Source: a virus
Lineage: Duplodnaviria > Caudoviricetes
Strand: one strand, 5' to 3'
Virus record (IMG/VR): IMGVR_UViG_3300033074_001347
Location: 1 to 64,000 of that record
DNA length: 64,000 bases
Part shown: in pieces, positions 1-25,789 of the stretch
Layout of the letters: every line of letters starts with the position of its first letter
How positions within the stretch are numbered: the first letter of the stretch is position 1
Notes under the pieces: model-generated
Told to the model about the DNA's origin: nothing
Seen by the model: the letters and a program-made list of their open reading frames with translations, nothing else
Databases searched by the model: none
Made by a program: the position numbers and the translations under genes

Positions 1-83
1 TGATAAATTCATTGTGTCTTCTTTCCAGCGAGACATTAAGGTCTCAAATTGTTTGTGTAGCAATATAGATGTCATAGCCTTTT

Positions 84-383
84 CTATTCTATTAATTCCG
101 AGAATCGTGAAGGGAATAAAGATTCTGGTATGCAAATAGTTCTACTTACTGCTGTATCAAAAGAGAAAGTTATAAGCAAGCCTTTAGTAAAAGGGATGGA
201 TCTATCACTATTAACTATAATTATATTATTTAGTTTAGGTACTTGAAAGGTTAATTTTTTAAAGTAATCCCTAACAATATTTTTATTAGGGTAAGCTGAT
301 AAGGAGCTCTTCATAGCGTTGATAAAGTCAATAAAATCAGCGTCGCCATCTATAAATTTAACCTTGGCTTTATTGTTGTCCAT
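84..383 (-). CDS. hypothetical protein (99 aa)
   Basis: ORF with GAGGA-type RBS, co-oriented directly downstream of topoisomerase A; no recognisable motif. Confidence 0.6.
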   Translation of the reverse strand: MDNNKAKVKFIDGDADFIDFINAMKSSLSAYPNKNIVRDYFKKLTFQVPKLNNIIIVNSDRSIPFTKGLLITFSFDTAVSRTICIPESLFPSRFSELIE

Positions 384-1964: not shown

Positions 1965-3833
1965 TTAAATACCCATCAGTTCCTTGCGCATTGTAATATC
2001 CTCTCCTACTAGTGAGATAAACTTTTTGCCATTTCCTTTTTCTATTATTTTAACTCGCATCAACCTTCTGGTTTTTTCGTCCATGGCTACCTCTCTAATT
2101 AACGAAGCCTCTGCTTCACCCCAGCCTTTCATTCTAGTAATAGGAGCGTTTGGAGAAATCATCTTTTTTAGATCTCTAAGCGTAGCAGCATAAACATTTT
2201 TTGACCCTATTTGAGATTTAAACAATGGGGCATCTACCAAATATACCATTCCTTTTTCAAACAGAGAGGGCATCAATCTATGAATTAAAGCTATTAACAA
2301 TACATTAATATGTAGCCCATCTTCGTCTGCATCTGCCAAGAAAATCAACCTACCAATTCTTAGGTGCTCAACAGGATTTTTATTAGCAGGGTTATAGCCA
2401 ATTGCTTTTAGAATGTCTATTACTGTTTGACTTTCTACTACATCCGAAACTTTCTTTACCTTATAAGCGTTTTGAATTTTACCTCTAATCGGAAGAATTT
2501 CCTGAAAGTTAGGGTCTCGTGCTTGCTTTGGTGTTCCTTTAGCTGAGTCCCCTTCTACAATAAACAATTCTCGTTTCGAGGGGTCTTTGGTGGTAGATCC
2601 GGCAAGTTTAGCTGGTAGTAAGGACCTACCTCCTTTATTAGTTTTTAATGCAGCGGCTAACTTTTTATTGGAGGCCCATTGCTGCTGGGCCTCCCTGATT
2701 GCAGCGGCTCTATCCACAATTCTTTTAGCCAAAGCTTTATTAGACGCAAAGTACTTTTTTATTTCCCCGGATAAATTGGCAATTACTATGTCTGCCGCTT
2801 CTGTAGAGGCCAGCTTCTCCTTAGTCTGTGAAGTAAACTTAGGGCTAGGTATCTTAACATTTAATAATCCTACTAACCCTACTTTTAGGTCGTCTATTCT
2901 ATACTCACGCTTACCTTTATACGGGGCCAAGGCCTCCTGTAAAACTTTGTAAAAGGCTTGTTCATGTGTACCACCATCCACGGTTTTTATGCCACAGGCA
3001 AAGCTACTAAACATATTCTCATCACTACTACAAAACTGCATCCCACAGCTAATATTTTTAGAGGAGAACACAAATGGTTGACCGTCCAGTTCATAGTCGG
3101 ACGCCTCTTTTTTAATAAAGGCTTTCACACCTTCCTTGTTATAATATACTTTTTGGTGTTTCGGTGTGTAAAGAACAAAGTAAGATCCCTCGTTAAGGTA
3201 CGATTGAAGTTCAAACCACTCGGGCATTTTAGATAAATCTAGTTTAGATTTTTTATCAAAAACCGAGAGATCAAACTTAAACCTAATTATGGTTCCCTCA
3301 CTAAATTTTGCCTTGCCCGCAAATTTGCGCACTTTGCTTGGTAATTCAATATTCGGTTTGCCAATCTTTTTCACACTACTGGTAGGCTTGCCTTTCTTAA
3401 AGGTTTGAGACCACCATTTACTATTAAAATAAGTGTTTACCTCAAAAAGTTCCGACGTAGCATTAGTAGCAGTGGCCCCAATTCCGTGAGTGCCCCCCGA
3501 CACGCTATAAGCTTTTCCACCACCTAACTTACCCCCTGCGTGTAACTTGGTAAACACTGCCGTTAGTGTGTTAATTTTATACTTAGGGTGAACACCCGTT
3601 GGAATACCTTTACCTCCATCCCATACAGTTATAACCCCTTGATCATCTATATACATACCAACTATATTATTTCTACCTGCTAGAATTTCGTCTACCGCAT
3701 TATCTACTATTTCTTTTGTAGCATGATACATAGCATCACTACCAGAGCTACCTAAGTACATAGAAAGCTTTTTCCTTACGGCCTCTGTACCTTCTAAGAT
3801 TTCAATATCGCTTACGTCATATCCCTTAGCCAT
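1965..3833 (-). CDS. gyrB: type IIA DNA topoisomerase subunit B (GyrB/ParE-like)
   Basis: GHKL motifs EIVDNAVDE, DGGKGIP, GGTHGIG; TOPRIM EGDSA, PIRGKI, ADADEDG; RMKGWGE. Confidence 0.95.
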   Translation of the reverse strand: MAKGYDVSDIEILEGTEAVRKKLSMYLGSSGSDAMYHATKEIVDNAVDEILAGRNNIVGMYIDDQGVITVWDGGKGIPTGVHPKYKINTLTAVFTKLHAGGKLGGGKAYSVSGGTHGIGATATNATSELFEVNTYFNSKWWSQTFKKGKPTSSVKKIGKPNIELPSKVRKFAGKAKFSEGTIIRFKFDLSVFDKKSKLDLSKMPEWFELQSYLNEGSYFVLYTPKHQKVYYNKEGVKAFIKKEASDYELDGQPFVFSSKNISCGMQFCSSDENMFSSFACGIKTVDGGTHEQAFYKVLQEALAPYKGKREYRIDDLKVGLVGLLNVKIPSPKFTSQTKEKLASTEAADIVIANLSGEIKKYFASNKALAKRIVDRAAAIREAQQQWASNKKLAAALKTNKGGRSLLPAKLAGSTTKDPSKRELFIVEGDSAKGTPKQARDPNFQEILPIRGKIQNAYKVKKVSDVVESQTVIDILKAIGYNPANKNPVEHLRIGRLIFLADADEDGLHINVLLIALIHRLMPSLFEKGMVYLVDAPLFKSQIGSKNVYAATLRDLKKMISPNAPITRMKGWGEAEASLIREVAMDEKTRRLMRVKIIEKGNGKKFISLVGEDITMRKELMGI

Positions 3834-3850
3834 AATTAGCTCCCTTTATC

Positions 3851-4186
3851 CTACAATGGTTTTTTTAGATCTTTTATTAGCATATCCACACATGCTTTTA
3901 AATTATTATTTTGCTCTACTATAGTTCTGGCCATTACCCTATTGAAAGAAATTTTACGATACGTCGTAAACACATCGTAAGCTACGAATAGTGCAAATTG
4001 CGCTACCAACCCTGATAGCAAAATTCCTAGTGGTAGTCTAATATTACATATCATTAGAAATATCCTATATATACTCCTGACTGATAATCTTATTTTCCTT
4101 TCAAAAGTTCTGGAATGGTGAAGGATTATTCTCCACCTTAAACTATATACTTCCGACAGCCCGTGTATATCCAGCAACCTAGTCAT
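3851..4186 (-). CDS. hypothetical, probably membrane protein
   Basis: ATG at 4186 lies next to the upstream stop (track start 4267 overlaps the upstream gene); hydrophobic segment LPLGILLSGLVAQFALFVAY. Confidence 0.55.
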   Translation of the reverse strand: MTRLLDIHGLSEVYSLRWRIILHHSRTFERKIRLSVRSIYRIFLMICNIRLPLGILLSGLVAQFALFVAYDVFTTYRKISFNRVMARTIVEQNNNLKACVDMLIKDLKKPL

Positions 4187-4187
4187 T

Positions 4188-4637
4188 TCAATTTTTCCTA
4201 GTAGATCTATTCTTTTTAGAACGGTCTCTATTATCAATTTCCTTGAGTGGTTTCTTAACCGCTTCAAATACTGTATAATCCTGTCTGTAGTGAATAATTA
4301 CTTCCCCCTCATCTACAGAGATAAAATTATCGTACTCTTTTGGGATGAGAGTACCACTGGCTTCTACTTTTTGTGTACCGGGAGTTAATACTCCAATATA
4401 GCTATATTCAGAGTCTACTCCCCCACCAAAATATGCTATGTTGTTCCAAGTAACAAACCTGCTAATTCTTGTTCGTGATCCAAATCGTCTATAGGAGAAA
4501 AGGATGCCTACTTTCGTTACTTCCTCTATCTCTAATTCCGTTCTATCCTCTGAACTATACTCCTCTACATAAAATCCCGAGGGTATGTTTAGTGTCACAT
4601 CAAATATAGTATCCTCATACTTCTTCAAAGTATCCAT
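4188..4637 (-). CDS. hypothetical protein (149 aa)
   Basis: ORF with GGAGG RBS, just downstream of a terminator. Confidence 0.65.
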   Translation of the reverse strand: MDTLKKYEDTIFDVTLNIPSGFYVEEYSSEDRTELEIEEVTKVGILFSYRRFGSRTRISRFVTWNNIAYFGGGVDSEYSYIGVLTPGTQKVEASGTLIPKEYDNFISVDEGEVIIHYRQDYTVFEAVKKPLKEIDNRDRSKKNRSTRKN

Positions 4638-4662
4638 CTTTAGATGTCCTTACCTCCAAATT

Positions 4663-4690
4663 AAAAAGGGCGGTATAGACCGCCCCTTTT
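4663..4690 (-). terminator. rho-independent terminator (possibly bidirectional)
   Basis: GGGCGGT-ATAG-ACCGCCC stem flanked by A-run and T-run, immediately after the stop of 4705..5298. Confidence 0.8.
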
Positions 4691-4704
4691 CACCGTACCA
4701 CTGA

Positions 4705-5298
4705 TTAGCGGCGACCGCGACCCTTGGCGGGACGGCCACGCTTAGCCTTTACAGGAGGCTTCTTTCCCTTAGCAGCGGGACGACCGGGTTTTGCCTTGGC
4801 GGGACGGCCACGCTTAGCCTTTACAGGAGGCTTCTTTCCCTTAGCAGCGGGACGGCCACGCTTAGCGGGCTTATCATCCTCATCGTCCTCATCATCCTCA
4901 TCTTCATCTTCATCGTCGTCAGACTCATCTTCATCCTCATCTTCATCTTCATCATCCTCTTCTTCATCATCATCTTCATCTTCATCATCCTCTTCTTCAT
5001 CATCATCTTCATCATCGGACTCATCATCTTCATCGTCGTCAGACTCATCTTCATCTTCATCCTCTTCTTCATCATCCTCTTCTTCATCTTCATCAGACTC
5101 ATCATCTTCATCCTCGTCATCGTCCGACTTCTTACCCTTGGCCTTCTTACCTTCTTCGGCAGAAGGTACTTCATCTAGTAGCCCATCAATGGCGGAAAGC
5201 ACTGCAAGTAGTGCTTGCTGTTGTGCCAGCGTTAGGCCCTCGGCGTTTTCTTTGAGGCTTTCCAATACTTCTTCAATCTTCTTTACTAGCTTACTCAT
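4705..5298 (-). CDS. acidic low-complexity protein with C-terminal AT-hook (RGRP) repeats; HMGA-like DNA-binding candidate
   Basis: N-terminal helix, ~85-aa D/E tract, then three KRGRP plus one PGRP in a Lys/Ala/Pro-rich tail; AAGGA RBS; followed by terminator. Confidence 0.75.
   Translation of the reverse strand: MSKLVKKIEEVLESLKENAEGLTLAQQQALLAVLSAIDGLLDEVPSAEEGKKAKGKKSDDDEDEDDESDEDEEEDDEEEDEDEDESDDDEDDESDDEDDDEEEDDEDEDDDEEEDDEDEDEDEDESDDDEDEDEDDEDDEDDKPAKRGRPAAKGKKPPVKAKRGRPAKAKPGRPAAKGKKPPVKAKRGRPAKGRGRR
4722..4854. repeat. ~61-bp direct repeat (4722-4782 and 4794-4854) encoding the AT-hook units
   Basis: ccttggcgggacggccacgcttagcctttacaggaggcttctttcccttagcagcgggacg occurs twice at 72-bp offset. 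Confidence 0.8.
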
Positions 5299-19678: not shown

Positions 19679-21445
19679 ATGCGATACAGCATAAGTATTG
19701 ATTATTCTCGCAATGACCTGCTAACCGATTTTGGAAAGGCCACCTTACAGGATAGGTATTTATTACCGGGAGAGGACTTCCAGGATGCTTTCGCTAGAGT
19801 AGCAAGCGCTTATGCTGATGATAATAGTCATGCTCAGCGCTTATATGACTATATGAGTAGACTATGGTTTGTTCCTTCTACCCCTGTGTTAGCTAATGGA
19901 GGAGCAACCCGAGCTTTACCAATCTCTTGTTACCTTTCAGAGGTACAAGACGACATGCATAGTATTGTTGAAAAGTGGAATGAAAGTGTATGGATTGCTG
20001 CAAATACGGGAGGAACAGGTACTTATTGGGGTAATATCCGTAGTATAGGGGAGCAAATAGGAATTAAAGGCAAGGCTAGTGGAGTAATACCTTTTATAGT
20101 CGTTCAAAATAGTTTGTCAGCTGCTATTGATAGAGGAGCACAGCGTAGGGGAGCTGCCGCTGTATATATGCCTGTATGGCACCCCGAGATAGAGGAGTTT
20201 ATTGAGATTCGTAAACCTACAGGCGGAGATCCAATTAGAAAAGCCCTATTTTTGCACAATGCTGTTGTAATAGATGACGATTTTATGAAAGCGGTTGAAA
20301 CGGACTCCACATACCAGTTAAGAAGTCCCAGCACAGGTAAGGTGATTAGAGAAGTTAAAGCACGCGATATTTGGATCAGAATACTGACTTGTCGTATTGA
20401 AACAGGTGAACCATATATGCTTTTTATTGATAGTGTTAATAAATCAATACCTCAACATCAAAAGGACCTAGGATTAAAGATAAAGATGTCCAATTTATGT
20501 TGTGAGATTGTATTGCCAACAGGCATAGACCACTTAGGTAAAGATAGAACAGCGGTATGCTGTTTATCCTCAGTTAATCTGGAATACTTTGAAGAGTGGT
20601 CACAAAATCCAACATTTATTGATGATTTAATGAGATACTTAGATAATATCTTACAAGACTTCATTGATAGGGCACCATCAGAGTTTGAGTCTGCTAGGTA
20701 CAGTGCTATGAGAGAAAGAAGCGTAGGTTTAGGTGCTATGGGCTTTCACAGCTTCCTTCAAATGAAATCAATACCTTTTGAGAGTGTTATGGCAAAGGTG
20801 TGGAACAAAAAGATGTTTAAGTATATCAGGGAATGCGCCGATCAGTCTAGTATTAAACTAGGTAAGGAAAGAGGGGCTTGTCCCGATGCTGCTGAGACCT
20901 TATCTATGGAAAGATTCTCAAATAAAATCGCTATAGCACCTAACGCTAGCAGCTCCATATATTGTGGTAATGCAAGTCCCGGTATTGAGCCATACCCTTC
21001 TAATTCTTATAGTCATAAGACTTTGGGCGGAACATTTAATGTAAGGAACAAGTTTCTAAAAAAGGTATTATACAAATATGGTAAGGATACAGAGGACGTA
21101 TGGACTGATATTACTGTTAACGGAGGGTCTGTACAACAATTAGATTTTCTTTCTGATGAAGAAAAGGAGGTTTACAAAACCGCCTTCGAGCTAGATCAAA
21201 GGTGGATAATAGAACATGCGGCAGATAGAACCCCATTCGTATGCCAATCTCAAAGTATAAATCTATTTTTGCCTGCTGATGTGCATAAGAGAGACTTGCA
21301 CATGCTACATTATATGGCTTGGAAAAGAGGAGTAAAAAGTTTATATTATTGTAGAAGTAAATCTTTGCAAAGAGCCGAAGTTGTCAGTAAAACTGTGACC
21401 TCACAAGAGCCCACAAAATATGCCGAATGCCTTTCTTGTCAATAA
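19679..21445 (+). CDS. nrdA: class Ia ribonucleotide reductase alpha subunit, no ATP cone
   Basis: STPVLANGG, PISCY, SNLCCEI (N-C-E), IAPNASSS, KSLYYCR, C-terminal CLSCQ. Confidence 0.96.
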   Translation: MRYSISIDYSRNDLLTDFGKATLQDRYLLPGEDFQDAFARVASAYADDNSHAQRLYDYMSRLWFVPSTPVLANGGATRALPISCYLSEVQDDMHSIVEKWNESVWIAANTGGTGTYWGNIRSIGEQIGIKGKASGVIPFIVVQNSLSAAIDRGAQRRGAAAVYMPVWHPEIEEFIEIRKPTGGDPIRKALFLHNAVVIDDDFMKAVETDSTYQLRSPSTGKVIREVKARDIWIRILTCRIETGEPYMLFIDSVNKSIPQHQKDLGLKIKMSNLCCEIVLPTGIDHLGKDRTAVCCLSSVNLEYFEEWSQNPTFIDDLMRYLDNILQDFIDRAPSEFESARYSAMRERSVGLGAMGFHSFLQMKSIPFESVMAKVWNKKMFKYIRECADQSSIKLGKERGACPDAAETLSMERFSNKIAIAPNASSSIYCGNASPGIEPYPSNSYSHKTLGGTFNVRNKFLKKVLYKYGKDTEDVWTDITVNGGSVQQLDFLSDEEKEVYKTAFELDQRWIIEHAADRTPFVCQSQSINLFLPADVHKRDLHMLHYMAWKRGVKSLYYCRSKSLQRAEVVSKTVTSQEPTKYAECLSCQ

Positions 21446-21467
21446 ATAACTTATTAGGATTAATCAA

Positions 21468-23963
21468 ATGAACCAACCACTTACCCCATCCACTAAGATT
21501 GATTGTAATTCAACCATTGATGAATATATAAGTCAAAGTGACTGGAGAGTTAATGCGAATGCTAACATTGGATACTGTAATGCAGGATTAGTGACACACG
21601 CAGCAGGTAAAGCTATAGCTAACTATTGGTTAGATAAGGTTTACACTAAAGAAGAAGGGGACGCCCATAGACAGGCTGACTACCATATCCATGATTTGGA
21701 TTGCTTAACTGGCTATTGCGCAGGATGGTCATTGCGCCAAGTTTTAAACGAAGGTTTTAATATTGGTCATGGTCGGGTCGGTTCAAAGCCACCACGACAT
21801 TTTAGAGAGGCTCTTGGCCAAATGGCTAACTATTTGGGCGTCCTACAAATGGAATGGGCGGGAGCTCAGGCTTTCAGCTCTTTTGATACCTATCTAGCAC
21901 CTTATGTATTTAGGGATAAGCTAGACTACGAGCAAATCAAAAAAGCTATAACCCAGTTTATATTCAACGTAAATGTTCCCGCTAGATGGGGCCAAAGCCC
22001 ATTTACGAACATAACATTAGATATTGATGTGCCTGATGACCTAAAGGAAACTTTCCCTACGGCCAAGGACATACACCTATTTAGAGGTATCCAGGATCAA
22101 GACCTTTTAGACTTAGCCAAACTACGTGATCCTAGTATAAATACTTTAGAAGATATGAAGTATAAGCATTTTGAAAGTGAGATGGAACAAATAACATTGG
22201 CGTATTATGAGGTAATGACTACTGGAGATGCTAATGGGCAGCCATTTACATTTCCTATCCCTACCGTTAATATAACAGAAGCTTTTGACTGGAACAGTAA
22301 AGTGGCTGATGCTATCTTTACAAATAGTGCGAAGATGGGCTGCTCTTATTTCCAAAACTTTGTGGGTTCACAGTATAAGAGGGATGAGCAAGGTAACAGG
22401 GTAGAGAATCCAGAAGCTTATAAACCCGGTGCTGTCAGGTCAATGTGCCCCCTACCCGGATATACATTAGTACCCATTCTATTTACTATAGACGGTATTG
22501 AACACTTTGATACCAGAAGTATTGAAGATATCCATTCTGATCATGCTAATGGTTTGGAATTTAAGGTTAAATACGGTGATGATTGGTACGAAGCATCTAC
22601 AAATAAAACTAGGGGTACCACTATAACATTGACACTGGACAGCGTTTCTAGTGTAAGCAGATACCAAGGGGAAGTATCGTCTGAAAAAACTATTGTGATG
22701 TTGTCTCCCTCAGAATACGAGCTAGGTAATAATCATTTACAACCAGTACTCAGAACTAATAGTGATGGAAGTGAGAGGGTTATTACAGTCAAGGGAGCAG
22801 ATATACTAATAGGGGACTCTATACCTTATATGGTAGCTAATAGATATAGGTGGGTTAAGGTAATTAATATTAGGACTAACACAGAGGAAAAAGATTTATA
22901 TTGCTTTGAGGTAAAAAGTGAAAAGCACCTATTTGAATTAAGTTCGGGTATTGTAACACATAATTGTCGTCTCCAGTTAGACCTTAGAGAACTATTAAAG
23001 CGTGGAAACGGTTTGTTCGGATCGGCCGAAATGACTGGAAGTATTGGAGTAGTGACCATTAATATGGCTAGATTAGGTTTCTTAAATAAGGGAGATGAGG
23101 AAAAATTGTTTAATAGTTTAGACAAGCTTATGGATCTTGCTAAGAATACTCTAGAAAAGAAAAGACTATTTATACAGGATATGTATAATAGAGGACTGTA
23201 TCCCTACACAAAAAGGTATCTAAGAGGTTTCATGAACCACTTCTCTACTATTGGTATAAATGGTATGAATGAAATGGTGCGTAATTTTTCCAACGATAAA
23301 TCAGATTTAACATCAAGAGAGGGTATAGAACTGTCTATAAGGATACTAGAATATATGAGATCAAAACTAAAAGTTTATCAAGAGGAAACAGGGCATCTAT
23401 ATAATTTAGAGGCTACACCCGCAGAAGGCACTACTTACAGATTTGCTAAGGAAGACCATAAGAAGTTTGGTGAGTCCATTATTCAGGCCGGAGTATACCC
23501 CAATATATATTATACCAACAGCAGCCAAACTCCGGTAGATTTTTCTGATGATCCATTTGAAGTGCTTGACTTGCAGGATGACCTACAGTGTAAATATACA
23601 GGCGGCACTGTACAACATTTGTATATGAGCGAACAAATCAGTAGTGGAGAAGCCTGCAAAAACTTAGTAAAAAATGTCATAGAAAATTACAGACTTCCAT
23701 ACATTACTATAACACCTGTGTTTAGTGTTTGTGATGAACACGGTTATCTAAAGGGAGAGCAGCACGAATGTCCTTACTGTGGTGCAGAAACAAAAGTATG
23801 GACTAGAGTGATGGGGTATTTTAGGCCTGTTGCGAACTTTAATATTGGTAAAAAAGGCGAGTTTTACGCACGTAAATGGTTTAAGGAGCCTGAACATAAA
23901 TCGGAAGTTGTAAACTTTAGAACACGAATCCCTACCGACAAGGACATTGACATTGCTGTATGA
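21468..23963 (+). CDS. nrdD: class III anaerobic ribonucleoside-triphosphate reductase with intein
   Basis: HIHDL, RSMC..CRL, EATPAEG, YTGGTV, CDEHG..CPYC, glycyl-radical RVMGYFRPV. Confidence 0.95.
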   Translation: MNQPLTPSTKIDCNSTIDEYISQSDWRVNANANIGYCNAGLVTHAAGKAIANYWLDKVYTKEEGDAHRQADYHIHDLDCLTGYCAGWSLRQVLNEGFNIGHGRVGSKPPRHFREALGQMANYLGVLQMEWAGAQAFSSFDTYLAPYVFRDKLDYEQIKKAITQFIFNVNVPARWGQSPFTNITLDIDVPDDLKETFPTAKDIHLFRGIQDQDLLDLAKLRDPSINTLEDMKYKHFESEMEQITLAYYEVMTTGDANGQPFTFPIPTVNITEAFDWNSKVADAIFTNSAKMGCSYFQNFVGSQYKRDEQGNRVENPEAYKPGAVRSMCPLPGYTLVPILFTIDGIEHFDTRSIEDIHSDHANGLEFKVKYGDDWYEASTNKTRGTTITLTLDSVSSVSRYQGEVSSEKTIVMLSPSEYELGNNHLQPVLRTNSDGSERVITVKGADILIGDSIPYMVANRYRWVKVINIRTNTEEKDLYCFEVKSEKHLFELSSGIVTHNCRLQLDLRELLKRGNGLFGSAEMTGSIGVVTINMARLGFLNKGDEEKLFNSLDKLMDLAKNTLEKKRLFIQDMYNRGLYPYTKRYLRGFMNHFSTIGINGMNEMVRNFSNDKSDLTSREGIELSIRILEYMRSKLKVYQEETGHLYNLEATPAEGTTYRFAKEDHKKFGESIIQAGVYPNIYYTNSSQTPVDFSDDPFEVLDLQDDLQCKYTGGTVQHLYMSEQISSGEACKNLVKNVIENYRLPYITITPVFSVCDEHGYLKGEQHECPYCGAETKVWTRVMGYFRPVANFNIGKKGEFYARKWFKEPEHKSEVVNFRTRIPTDKDIDIAV
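22449..22964 (+). mobile_element. mini-intein (172 aa, no homing endonuclease) in NrdD
   Basis: block A-like PLPGYTLV, block B GNNHLQ, block F LYCFEV, block G SGIVTHN followed by Cys; removal restores RSMC-CRLQLD. Confidence 0.88.
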
Positions 23964-24565
23964 TATACTCTATAACTCCATTTACCTTATTAGACTACCC
24001 TAATAAGGTTGCTTGCATTATATGGATAGCTGGATGTAACCTAAGATGTAAATATTGTTACAACCCGCAGATAGTATATGGTAAAAACCGGATGCCTTGG
24101 AAACAAGCATCCGGTTTTCTTAATTCAAGAGTCAACAAACTGCAAGGAGTAGTATTTCTAGGCGGAGAACCTACCACCCACCCCGATTTATTCAGTATGA
24201 TAAAGGATACTAAGGACAAAGGGTTTTTAGTAAAACTAGATACTAATGGTCTAAGGCCAGATGTTTTGGAGAAACTTATTGGGCACAAATTACTAGATAT
24301 GGTGGCACTAGACTACAAGTCTACTCCTAATAAATTTAGAGAGATAACAGGAGCGAATAAATACGAAAAGTTTGAGAAATCATTGAAATTATTAATAGAT
24401 TCTGGTGTAAATCTATCAATAAGAACTACCGTACATCCTGACTTACTAAATATAAATGATGTAAAGTATATTGAACAACATATACAGTCACTAGGTTACA
24501 ATAAGGATCTAGTGATACAAAAGGCAATAACAAACGTACCAATGTTAGGGTTTGGAAATGATTAA
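23960..24565 (+). CDS. nrdG: anaerobic RNR activase (radical SAM)
   Basis: CNLRCKYCYN, GGEPT, KLDTNG; ATGA overlap with the nrdD stop. Confidence 0.93.
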   Translation: MIYSITPFTLLDYPNKVACIIWIAGCNLRCKYCYNPQIVYGKNRMPWKQASGFLNSRVNKLQGVVFLGGEPTTHPDLFSMIKDTKDKGFLVKLDTNGLRPDVLEKLIGHKLLDMVALDYKSTPNKFREITGANKYEKFEKSLKLLIDSGVNLSIRTTVHPDLLNINDVKYIEQHIQSLGYNKDLVIQKAITNVPMLGFGND

Positions 24566-24785
24566 TATCATCGGGCCTAATTATGAAGAGGCTTTAATAG
24601 TAACGGCAAAAGTAGGTATGTTTACCCTTTCTATAAACATACTATTATACCTATATGTATTATTGTCCATATACGTGACAAAAACTCTACGGTGGGGAAC
24701 GGCAATAATGTATATTGTGACTATGACAATTATCCTAACTGCACTATTCGTAGTTTTCAGCTGGTCAGACTATACTAGCATATAA
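24552..24785 (+). CDS. small two-TM membrane protein
   Basis: two hydrophobic segments; fills the gap between nrdG and nrdB. Confidence 0.55.
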   Translation: MEMINIIGPNYEEALIVTAKVGMFTLSINILLYLYVLLSIYVTKTLRWGTAIMYIVTMTIILTALFVVFSWSDYTSI

Positions 24786-24805
24786 ATTTATTAAGGAGAT
24801 ATAAT

Positions 24806-25789
24806 ATGAGTTTATTAACAGAGCAAGTCGGGTATAAACCTCATCGCTACCCTTGGGCGTATGAAGGGTGGTTACTACAGTCTAGGCTACACTGGCTTCC
24901 TGAGGAAGTTCCTATGGCCGATGATGTTAAAGACTGGCAAACTAAGATTACTGATGGAGAAAGAAATCTATTAACTCAAATATTCAGATTTTTTACACAG
25001 TCTGATGTAGAGGTTAATGGGGCCTATAACCGACTTTTTATACCCTACTTTAAGCCCGTGGAAATATCCATGATGATGGGTTCTTTCGCCTATATGGAGA
25101 CCGTTCATATAGCGGCCTACTCCCATCTTATAGATACCCTAGGTATACCTGAGGTTGAGTATAGTGCTTTCATGGAATATAAAGAAATGAAAGATAAGCA
25201 CGACTTCCTTCAAGGTATATCTGTAGAGGATGAGCGCAGTGTAGCTAGAGCCATTGCTGTTTTCGCAGGATTTACGGAGGGCCTATCTTTATTTGCCAGT
25301 TTCGCTATGTTAATGAACTTCCCAAGGTTTAATAAGATGAAGGGGATGGGACAAATTGTGACGTGGAGTGTTAGGGACGAAACACTGCACGTACAGTGCA
25401 TGACAAAACTATTTAACACTTTCATATCCGAGAACCCCCATATTTGGAATGATAGTCTAAAATTAGAAATCTACACTGCCTGTGAGAAGATGGTGGGAAT
25501 GGAGGATAAGTTCATTGACCTAGCCTTTGAGATGGGGCCTGTAGAAGGTTTAGCTTCATCAGAGGTAAAGCAGTACATACGGTTTATTGCAGACCGGCGT
25601 TTGGTGGGATTAGGTTTGAATCCCCTATTTAATATAGGATCTAACCCACTGCCTTGGATGGATCTGATTTTAAATGGGGACGAACATACAAATTTCTTTG
25701 AAAATAGATCAACAGAGTACTCTAAGGCCGCTACCTCTGGCACTTGGGATGAAGCTTTTGCGGCCATGTTAGAACTAAACAAGGAATAA
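24806..25789 (+). CDS. nrdB: class Ia ribonucleotide reductase beta subunit
   Basis: HWLPEEVPM, FFTQSD, ETVHIAAY, EGLSLFASF, DETLH; AAGGAG RBS. Confidence 0.96.
   Translation: MSLLTEQVGYKPHRYPWAYEGWLLQSRLHWLPEEVPMADDVKDWQTKITDGERNLLTQIFRFFTQSDVEVNGAYNRLFIPYFKPVEISMMMGSFAYMETVHIAAYSHLIDTLGIPEVEYSAFMEYKEMKDKHDFLQGISVEDERSVARAIAVFAGFTEGLSLFASFAMLMNFPRFNKMKGMGQIVTWSVRDETLHVQCMTKLFNTFISENPHIWNDSLKLEIYTACEKMVGMEDKFIDLAFEMGPVEGLASSEVKQYIRFIADRRLVGLGLNPLFNIGSNPLPWMDLILNGDEHTNFFENRSTEYSKAATSGTWDEAFAAMLELNKE

What the first reader, a model, noticed from the sequence alone, without database searches (positions are those of the whole stretch)
22449..22964. Mini-intein apparently starting with Pro, inserted between the two adjacent active-site cysteines of NrdD
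Seen: ...GAVRSMC-PLPGYTLVP...LYCFEVKSEKHLFELSSGIVTHN-CRLQLD. Known: this NrdD subtype (redoxin-dependent, e.g. Thermotoga/Neisseria enzymes) carries an adjacent Cys pair (SMCCRL), and intein block A is normally C-L-x-x-x-T-x-V. PLPGYTLV aligns to block A with Pro in place of Cys1, and only that boundary restores CC. Block F has Cys at F4 and block G has Thr at G5, as in class 3 inteins, but block B reads NNHLQ where class 3 inteins have Trp (the WCT triad). Inference: a non-canonical, endonuclease-free intein that may use an incomplete class 3 route or the extein Cys-1. It would gate an oxygen-sensitive radical enzyme at its catalytic finger loop, so splicing could be redox-conditional.
Basis: partly seen in the sequence, partly recalled or inferred. 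Interest (0 to 1): 0.82.

Follow-up and report, generated by a model that had tools for sequence, protein, structure and literature searches.

The report
Proline-first intein splitting NrdD's cysteine pair
A T4-like phage's anaerobic ribonucleotide reductase gene carries a 172-residue self-splicing intein that starts with proline and sits exactly between the enzyme's two adjacent essential cysteines; it belongs to a large, undescribed branch of "class 3" inteins in which the supposedly essential tryptophan is always glutamine.

Summary
nrdD (21468..23963, 831 aa) carries a 172-aa insert (22449..22964) read RSMC|PLPGYTLV...IVTHN|CRLQLD. All 116 intein-free top homologues read RSMCCRLQLD, so only a Pro1 boundary restores the Cys pair.

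The insert folds as a HINT domain (AF2 pLDDT 87.6; Z 18.3 to a solved intein). Pro aligns with residue 1 of solved inteins and Asn with the last residue.

It is one of at least 133 distinct inteins at this NrdD site, in phages, bacteria and archaea:
- Invariant: Cys F4, Thr G5, His-Asn, Cys+1 and His B10.
- Residue 1: Pro in 128, Cys in 5.
- B12: Gln in 118, Asn in 14, Phe in 1, never Trp.

Pro1 is not new, because the class 3 prototype (MP-Be DnaB) begins with Pro. The new points are:
- the invariant Gln/Asn in place of the "WCT" Trp; QCT is absent from a 2020 census of 1702 class 3 inteins;
- Cys+1, which is rare in class 3;
- a Cys1-to-Pro1 series within one intein allele.

The most likely mechanism is the class 3 route through Cys F4. 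Redox-gated splicing is plausible but untested. The scan has already noted this intein type in at least 14 other genomes. Verdict: real, a new variant of a known kind, of moderate interest.

The parts
21468..23963 (+). nrdD gene (831-aa precursor: N-extein, intein, C-extein) including the stop codon
   Evidence: ORF list and translation. Pfam NRDD E 2.6e-165, split in two stretches. 69-76% identical to intein-free NrdDs over each aligned extein segment.
21468..22448 (+). N-extein (aa 1-327), ending ...GAVRSMC; Cys327 is the -1 residue and the first Cys of the CC pair
   Evidence: 116 of 116 intein-free homologues read RSMCCRL. It corresponds to Cys329 of T. maritima SCCR, which is essential (PMC4493059).
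22449..22964 (+). Mini-intein, 172 aa (aa 328-499), Pro1 to Asn172, with no homing endonuclease domain
   Evidence: AF2 model pLDDT 87.6, pTM 0.81. Foldseek top hits are all inteins. VIA Z 18.3, rmsd 2.0 over 142 residues to 6vgv; Pro aligns with residue 1 and Asn with the last residue of solved inteins. Relatives of 317-340 aa carry a LAGLIDADG-type insert between blocks B and F.
22449..22472 (+). Block A, PLPGYTLV; Pro328 is intein residue 1
   Evidence: 128 of 133 family members have Pro here and 5 have Cys (RSMC|CFTGNT...), at the same alignment column.
22662..22700 (+). Lineage-specific loop (intein residues about 72-84), low model confidence
   Evidence: pLDDT below 50 for model residues 77-89. 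Absent from the other mini-inteins in the alignments.
22707..22748 (+). Block B, ...YELGNNHLQPVL; Gly420 (B7), His423 (B10), Gln425 (B12), Pro426 (B13)
   Evidence: His B10 is invariant. B12 is Gln in 118 of 133, Asn in 14, Phe in 1 and never Trp. The profile alignment to the class 1 TFIIB intein places His on the TxxH His.
22893..22940 (+). Block F, DLYCFEVKSEKHLFEL; Cys479 (codon 22902..22904) is F4, the predicted first nucleophile
   Evidence: Cys F4 in 133 of 133. It aligns with the Asp F4 of class 1 inteins (YAYDLTV against LYCFEV).
22941..22964 (+). Block G, SSGIVTHN; Thr497 (G5), His498 (G6), Asn499 (G7, the cyclising residue)
   Evidence: THN is invariant in 133 of 133.
22965..23960 (+). 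C-extein (aa 500-831), beginning with Cys500, which is the +1 nucleophile and the second Cys of the CC pair; it aligns with the Cys of T4 NrdD's 288-MGCR-291 finger-loop motif
   Evidence: CRLQLD follows the junction in all homologues. Alignment of SCCR with T4 MGCR is from PMC4493059. The Gly-radical motif RVMGY and the Cys-rich Zn site are present in the translation.
23960..24565 (+). nrdG (activase, radical SAM), overlapping the nrdD stop by 4 nt
   Evidence: Pfam Radical_SAM 1.3e-21 and Fer4_12. An intact partner gene argues that nrdD is still in use.

Best explanation
The insert is a functional mini-intein that begins at Pro328 and ends at Asn499. Splicing joins Cys327 to Cys500 and regenerates the RSMCCRL finger-loop motif of a redoxin-type class III ribonucleotide reductase.

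Residue 1 has no nucleophile, so splicing most likely follows the class 3 route (steps inferred, not shown):
1. Cys479 (block F4), helped by His423 (B10), attacks the Cys327-Pro328 peptide bond and forms a block-F branched thioester.
2. The N-extein is passed to Cys500 (+1), giving the standard block-G branched intermediate.
3. Asn499 cyclises, assisted by His498, and releases the intein.
4. An S-to-N acyl shift makes the Cys-Cys peptide bond.

Gln425 at B12 (Gln or Asn across the whole family) stands where typical class 3 inteins have the structural Trp. The endonuclease domain has been lost, so this copy is no longer mobile on its own. Until splicing occurs the enzyme cannot work, because the intein separates the two essential cysteines.
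For: Shown:
- Boundaries. 116 of 116 intein-free homologues read RSMCCRL. Cys1 relatives at the same site read RSMC|C..., which keeps the -1 Cys and puts Cys in the Pro column.
- Structural alignment. Pro falls on residue 1 and Asn on the last residue of solved inteins, including class 3 Msm DnaBi1 6bs8.
- Fold. HINT fold at high confidence.
- Catalytic set. In 133 distinct family members, His B10, Cys F4, Thr G5, His G6, Asn G7 and Cys+1 are invariant and Pro1 occurs in 128.
- F4 position. Cys F4 occupies the column of the class 1 Asp F4.
- Gene state. The ORF is intact and has an intact nrdG partner.

From the literature:
- Pro1 plus Cys F4 plus Thr G5 defines the class 3 prototype, which splices through a block-F branched intermediate (PMC2807308).
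- A class 3 intein with Met at B12 still uses the class 3 route (PMC7891396).
Against: - No biochemical evidence exists for any member of this NrdD family.
- The Trp of the WCT signature is missing. In MP-Be DnaB a W67Q mutant was inactive at 30 C, though rescued at 15 C (PMC2807308).
- Cys+1 is atypical for class 3 and is the nucleophile that class 2 inteins use directly.
- Five homologous inteins at the same site have Cys1 together with Cys F4. Cys F4 therefore does not by itself prove the class 3 route.
- I could not read model coordinates, so no distances between Cys479 and the scissile bond were measured.
Confidence: 0.78

Rival explanations
1. Class 2 (KlbA-like) route: Cys500 (+1) attacks the Cys327-Pro328 amide directly and forms the block-G branched intermediate in one step. 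Cys479 would have only a coordinating role, like the class 1/2 Asp at F4.
For: There is no nucleophile at residue 1, and Cys+1 is invariant in the family, as in class 2 inteins. The class 3 Trp is absent.
Against: Cys F4 and Thr G5 are invariant in 133 of 133, whereas class 2 inteins keep Asp at F4. [quoted passage not shown]
Confidence: 0.1
2. Ordinary class 1 intein starting at Cys327 with a one-residue insertion in block A (CPLPGYTLV); the spliced product would be RSMCRL with a single Cys.
For: Cys immediately precedes the Pro, and most inteins begin with Cys.
Against: 116 of 116 intein-free homologues have CC, and both Cys of the T. maritima SCCR motif are essential (PMC4493059). Cys1 relatives read RSMC|CF..., which shows that the -1 Cys belongs to the extein. 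Structural alignment puts Pro, not Cys, on residue 1 of solved inteins. Block B lacks the class 1 Thr at B7 (Gly instead).
Confidence: 0.02
3. Decayed, non-splicing insertion: nrdD is a pseudogene in this phage, which relies on its class I NrdAB.
For: The endonuclease domain is lost. The intein is only 26-44% identical to its nearest relatives and has an extra disordered loop. The phage also encodes NrdA and NrdB.
Against: The 831-codon frame is open. All ten catalytic or signature positions match the family consensus. nrdG is intact and translationally coupled. The extein segments are about 75% identical to working-type NrdDs.
Confidence: 0.05

Closest known systems
Class 3 inteins, prototype mycobacteriophage Bethlehem DnaB intein (PMC2807308)
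   Same: Pro at residue 1, His B10, Cys at F4, Thr at G5, C-terminal His-Asn, phage context, HINT fold.
   Different: B12 is Gln (Asn in a sister group) instead of the Trp of the WCT triplet. +1 is Cys instead of Ser/Thr. B7 is Gly. The host protein is NrdD rather than DnaB. No biochemistry exists.
Bvi IcmO class 3 mini-intein (PMC5222942)
   Same: Class 3 signature combined with Cys at +1; mini-intein.
   Different: Bvi IcmO keeps Trp B12. [quoted passage not shown]
AceL NrdHF split class 3 intein (PDB 6ZGQ; PMC7891396)
   Same: A class 3 intein lacking the B12 Trp (MCT triplet), from a phage-like RNR gene. It shows that the class 3 route can run without Trp. Structural match Z 15.2.
   Different: It has hydrophobic Met at B12 where this family has polar Gln/Asn. 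It is naturally split, has Ala1, lacks both assisting histidines, and sits in a class Ib beta subunit.
Clostridium phage c-st NrdD intein (NC_007581 CST076)
   Same: Same insertion point between the two cysteines (ASC|C...THN|CRL), Cys F4, Thr G5, Asn at B12.
   Different: It begins with Cys1 and keeps Thr at B7 (TxxH), so it has a class 1-type N-terminus. It also carries an endonuclease-sized insert (330 aa).
Class 2 KlbA inteins
   Same: No nucleophile at residue 1; Cys at +1.
   Different: KlbA inteins have Ala1 and Asp at F4 and lack the Cys F4/Thr G5 pair.
Msm DnaBi1 class 3 intein as oxidative-stress sensor (PDB 6BS8; PMC6195587)
   Same: Class 3 catalytic Cys F4 that can be locked in a disulfide, giving a precedent for redox control. 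Structural match Z 14.4 over residues 1..139.
   Different: Its disulfide partner is an internal Cys48. Here the only other thiols are the flanking extein cysteines. No redox data exist for the NrdD intein.

Membership tests
Intein (HINT-fold protein-splicing element) | HINT fold | tested here: met
   AF2 model pLDDT 87.6. The top 50 VIA matches are all inteins, BIL or Hedgehog domains; best is 6vgv with Z 18.3, rmsd 2.0, 142 residues aligned.
Intein (HINT-fold protein-splicing element) | In-frame insertion at a conserved site of a host protein that also exists without the insert | tested here: met
   116 intein-free homologues read RSMCCRLQLD across the junction.
Intein (HINT-fold protein-splicing element) | Blocks A, B, F and G with His B10, a C-terminal His-Asn and a Cys/Ser/Thr at +1 | tested here: met
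   Pfam Intein_splicing scores only 15.7-18.9 bits, below its 35.8-bit cutoff, so the sequence is divergent.
Intein (HINT-fold protein-splicing element) | Demonstrated protein splicing | not testable with these tools
   Needs expression and mass spectrometry.
Class 3 inteins | No Cys/Ser/Thr nucleophile at residue 1 | tested here: met
   Pro328; Pro in 128 of 133 family members. The prototype also has Pro1 (PMC2807308).
Class 3 inteins | Cys at block F position 4 | tested here: met
   Cys479; 133 of 133; aligned with the class 1 Asp F4.
Class 3 inteins | Thr at block G position 5 | tested here: met
   Thr497; 133 of 133.
Class 3 inteins | Trp at block B position 12 (the W of WCT) | tested here: not met
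   Gln425. The family has Gln 118, Asn 14, Phe 1 and Trp 0. The 2020 census lists WCT 1685 of 1702, NCT 3, MCT 1 and no QCT (PMC7891396 Table S1). By that paper's operational definition (no Cys at position 1, Cys at F4) the intein does qualify.
Class 3 inteins | Ser or Thr at +1 | tested here: not met
   Cys500, invariant in the family. The known exception is Bvi IcmO (PMC5222942).
Class 3 inteins | Block-F branched thioester intermediate | not testable with these tools
   Requires mutants and thiol-lability assays.
Class 2 (KlbA-type) inteins | Non-nucleophilic residue 1 with Cys+1 attacking directly, and Asp kept at F4 | tested here: not met
   F4 is Cys, not Asp. Residue 1 and +1 are compatible with class 2.
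Class 1 inteins | Cys/Ser/Thr at residue 1 with the TxxH block B | tested here: not met
   Pro1 and GNNH (Gly at B7). Five homologous inteins at the same site do have Cys1 plus TxxH.
Redoxin-type NrdD (adjacent-Cys subtype, as in T. maritima SCCR) | Adjacent Cys pair in the finger-loop motif after splicing | tested here: met
   Predicted product RSMCCRL, as in 116 of 116 homologues. Both Cys are essential in tmNrdD (PMC4493059). Some NrdDs with the same intein carry fused glutaredoxin/thioredoxin domains.
Redoxin-type NrdD (adjacent-Cys subtype, as in T. maritima SCCR) | Use of thioredoxin/glutaredoxin instead of formate as reductant | not testable with these tools
   Enzymology is needed.

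The most novel reading that the evidence does not exclude
The Pro1/Gln-B12 NrdD inteins may form a mechanistically distinct sub-class. A polar amide at B12 would take an active role, positioning or polarising the Cys-Pro scissile bond or Cys F4, where other class 3 inteins use a structural Trp. The three thiols that meet at the active site (extein Cys-1, Cys F4, extein Cys+1) would form a reversible disulfide trap. The oxygen-sensitive reductase would then mature only under reducing, anoxic conditions. The coexistence of Cys1 and Pro1 forms in one allele would also record a class 1-to-class 3 transition by ordinary divergence.
Probability: 0.2. Interest if true: 0.75.

Novelty: new variant of a known kind. 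Interest (0 to 1): 0.45.

Why it matters
Class 3 inteins are defined by a Trp-Cys-Thr triplet, and the Trp has been treated as nearly essential. This is a large natural family, in phages, bacteria and archaea, that keeps Cys and Thr but always has Gln or Asn in place of Trp and always has Cys at +1. It offers ready-made material for three questions:
- What the B12 residue really does.
- Whether Cys+1 and Cys F4 compete.
- How class 3 chemistry arose. Homologous Cys1 and Pro1 forms sit at the same insertion site, which bears on the published argument that class 3 inteins could not have diverged from class 1 (PMC7664689).

The intein also splits the two essential cysteines of an oxygen-sensitive radical enzyme. 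That makes it a reasonable candidate for redox-conditional protein maturation and a possible Cys-flanked, traceless ligation tool. For genome annotation, these inteins score below Pfam's cutoff and their Pro1 boundary is easy to misplace by one residue.

Tried and rejected
- The Pfam Intein_splicing model gives only sub-threshold hits (15.7-18.9 bits against a 35.8 cutoff).
- phmmer of the single intein against PDB sequences found nothing meaningful. A 13-sequence profile was needed.
- tblastn of the intein against 50,697 GenBank phage records gave no hit at E <= 1e-3. The c-st relative appeared only when the whole NrdD was used.
- Tori & Perler 2011 (PMC3133030) is not held, so what I say about class 3 inteins with Ser1/Cys1 is from memory. 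The supplement of PMC2807308 is not held either.
- No held paper contains both 'class 3 intein' and NrdD terms. This is absence in that library only.
- Model coordinates are not exposed, so I could not measure distances from Cys479 or Gln425 to the scissile bond, or between the three thiols.
- Considered and rejected: Cys-1 as the nucleophile on its own carbonyl (it would need a four-membered ring); a Cys-Pro N-to-S shift at the Met-Cys bond (it would not regenerate CC); a group I intron or a frameshift (the frame is continuous).
- My first regex tallies of block B and F4 mis-picked some motifs, such as HHLQ. The column-based tally is the one to trust. The one search counts for cellular genomes are approximate.
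Full report
**What is in the sequence**

The window encodes an 831-aa NrdD at 21468..23963 (+). Pfam's NRDD model matches in two pieces that flank residues about 328-499. The intein model matches only weakly, at 15.7 bits against a cutoff of 35.8. The insert spans nt 22449..22964. Its base composition does not differ from the rest of the gene.

The surrounding genes place the window in a T4-like myovirus. They are topoisomerase II subunits, a UvsX-like recombinase, a clamp loader, an SbcC-like protein, NrdA, NrdG, NrdB, a dCTP deaminase-like protein, a baseplate wedge protein and tail fibres.

**Where the intein starts**

A search with the whole protein returned 120 listed NrdDs. All 116 without an insert read RSMCCRLQLD. 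The window and three others, which carry 323-337-aa inserts, read RSMC|PLxGxTxV...THN|CRLQLD. Only a Pro1/Asn172 intein therefore restores the host motif.

Three further results agree:
- Homologous inteins that begin with Cys read RSMC|CFTGNT..., AVSMC|CLRGDT... or, in Clostridium phage c-st, ASC|CFDGQQ... They keep the extein Cys at -1 and put their Cys1 in the column of the window's Pro.
- An AlphaFold2 model built on 40 family sequences is confident (pLDDT 87.6, pTM 0.81; one lineage-specific loop is disordered).
- Structural alignment puts model residue 6 (Pro) on residue 1 and residue 177 (Asn) on the last residue of many solved inteins. Examples are 6bs8 1..139, 4e2t 1..172 and 1zd7 1..159. 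The best match is the VidaL intein at Z 18.3, rmsd 2.0 over 142 residues (Foldseek).

The published alignment of T. maritima 328-SCCR-331 with T4 288-MGCR-291 makes the +1 Cys the counterpart of the Cys in T4's MGCR finger-loop motif. C329A and C330A each abolish T. maritima NrdD activity (PMC4493059). The intein therefore separates two essential cysteines.

**The family**

HMMER of the intein alone against 1.84 billion representative proteins gave only 22 hits. All of them are NrdDs, and all have ...YC[FL]xV...THN|CRL. A region-restricted search gave 110 more clustered proteins, including a Parasutterella muris NrdD and an archaeal MAG. A scan of IMG/VR gave 38 loci, and a scan of species-representative genomes gave 69 loci across many bacterial and archaeal phyla.

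In a column-based tally of 133 distinct inteins:
- His B10, Cys F4, Thr G5, His G6 and Asn G7 are invariant. Cys +1 follows every junction examined.
- Residue 1 is Pro in 128 and Cys in 5.
- B12 is Gln in 118. All of these have Pro1, and all but one have Gly, Asp or Glu at B7.
- B12 is Asn in 14. Ten of these have Pro1 with Thr or Ser at B7, and four have Cys1 with Thr at B7.
- B12 is Phe in 1 (Cys1) and is never Trp.

A profile of the family aligns its His with the TxxH His of class 1 inteins and its Cys with their Asp F4, which confirms the block numbering.

A FastTree of the splicing domains separates the Pro1/Gln group, which includes the window, with support 0.993. It separates the Cys1 group with support 0.952. 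The Pro1/Asn sequences lie between the two. The root is unknown, so the order of events is only suggested.

Cys1 and Pro1 forms are homologous over their whole length, endonuclease included. For example, L018 and L037 are 30% identical over 314 aa with E 2e-31.

The window's copy is a divergent mini-intein, at most 44% identical to any relative over partial length. Its extein segments are about 75% identical to alphaproteobacterial NrdDs.

**Mechanism**

Pro1 cannot make the N-S acyl shift. The co-occurrence of a non-nucleophilic residue 1 with Cys F4 and Thr G5 is the class 3 signature. Its prototype, the MP-Be DnaB intein, itself begins with Pro1 and splices efficiently through a block-F branched thioester (PMC2807308).

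I therefore infer this sequence of steps. Cys479 attacks the Cys327-Pro328 bond. The acyl group moves to Cys500. Asn499 cyclises, and an S-to-N shift forms Cys-Cys.

Direct attack by Cys+1 (class 2) is the main rival. It is disfavoured by the invariance of Cys F4 and by the Bvi IcmO experiments, in which Cys+1 could not replace Cys F4 (PMC5222942). None of these steps is shown for this family.

**Comparison with what is known**

Three things do depart from the textbook class 3 intein:
- Gln or Asn stands in place of Trp B12. A census of 1702 class 3 inteins found WCT in 1685, NCT in 3, MCT in 1 and no QCT (PMC7891396). W67Q inactivated MP-Be DnaB at 30 C.
- Cys+1 was known in only one class 3 intein in 2016.
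- Gly stands at B7.

The AceL NrdHF intein shows that the class 3 route can work without Trp, but it has a hydrophobic Met at that position. An invariant amide side chain is a different solution and is unexplained.

The insertion site itself is already represented by the annotated c-st phage NrdD, in a Cys1 form.

Beyer et al. argued that class 3 inteins are unlikely to have diverged from class 1, because grafting WCT onto gp41-1 fails (PMC7664689). The Cys1/Pro1 series within one allele bears on that question.

**Redox idea**

The intein contains a single Cys (F4). In the precursor it meets the two extein cysteines. Disulfide locking of a class 3 catalytic Cys has been shown for Msm DnaBi1 (PMC6195587). 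Some NrdDs with this intein have fused glutaredoxin or thioredoxin domains. Redox-gated maturation of an anaerobic enzyme is thus reasonable but entirely untested.

**Earlier notes of the scan**

A word search found 17 notes in at least 14 other genomes describing the same Pro-initiated NrdD intein. One follow-up reached the same reading. My results were obtained independently of these notes and agree with them.

**Verdict**

The intein works like a class 3 intein but fails two of the sequence-signature criteria (Trp B12 and Ser/Thr +1). It is best described as a new, widespread QCT/NCT variant of class 3 inteins specific to the NrdD Cys-Cys site.

Noticed in passing
L011:2152-5134 (IMGVR_UViG_3300001525_000077): An nrdD carrying a Pro1/HLQP intein is broken just after block F: ORF 2152..3387 ends ...DDLYCVEVL. 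A second, overlapping ORF in another frame (3356..5134) starts with about 275 aa of unrelated sequence (CxxC pairs and a GIY-YIG-like motif), then continues ...LFELHDGLITHN|CRLRLD and the C-extein. This is either a fractured (naturally split) class-3-like intein with an inserted endonuclease gene, or a frameshift error.
   Followed up: partly
L034 and L035 (IMG/VR contigs), frame 0 around nt 2800-3240: A Cys1-type NrdD intein lies in a gene with 62 in-frame TGA codons. TGA aligns with Gly of relatives (CFS*NT against CFTGNT), which suggests a phage using a code-25-like TGA=Gly reassignment.
   Followed up: partly
L040-L108 (genome-contig scan): In cellular MAGs (CPR bacteria, DPANN and Thermoplasmatota archaea, Treponema and others) the dominant form at this site is a roughly 330-aa Pro1 intein with [ST]xxHLN (Asn at B12) and a LAGLIDADG domain. 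It is nearly identical across distant phyla (PLAGDEKVLIKS...TTGILTHN), which suggests recent horizontal spread.
   Followed up: partly
proteins P0123, P0126, P0144, P0173, P0212, P0237 and others: Many NrdDs with this intein are 1100-1450 aa long and carry further Pfam intein, Hint or LAGLIDADG hits (PF07591, PF14890, PF14528). They hold two or three inteins in one nrdD.
   Followed up: no
proteins P0168, P0177, P0182, P0185, P0222, P0225, P0227: NrdDs with this intein have fused glutaredoxin or thioredoxin domains (PF00462, PF00085, PF13192). This is consistent with a redoxin-dependent NrdD subtype.
   Followed up: partly
window 19679-25789: The phage carries both an aerobic class I RNR (NrdA, 588 aa without an ATP cone, and NrdB) and the anaerobic NrdD/NrdG, in one co-oriented block with nrdD-nrdG placed between nrdA and nrdB.
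   Followed up: no
alignment A1, column of window intein residue 46 (Trp in DDWYEAS): A Trp between blocks A and B is conserved in at least 90% of the Gln-B12 mini-inteins but is absent from several Asn-B12 members. Whether it compensates for the missing B12 Trp is unknown.
   Followed up: no
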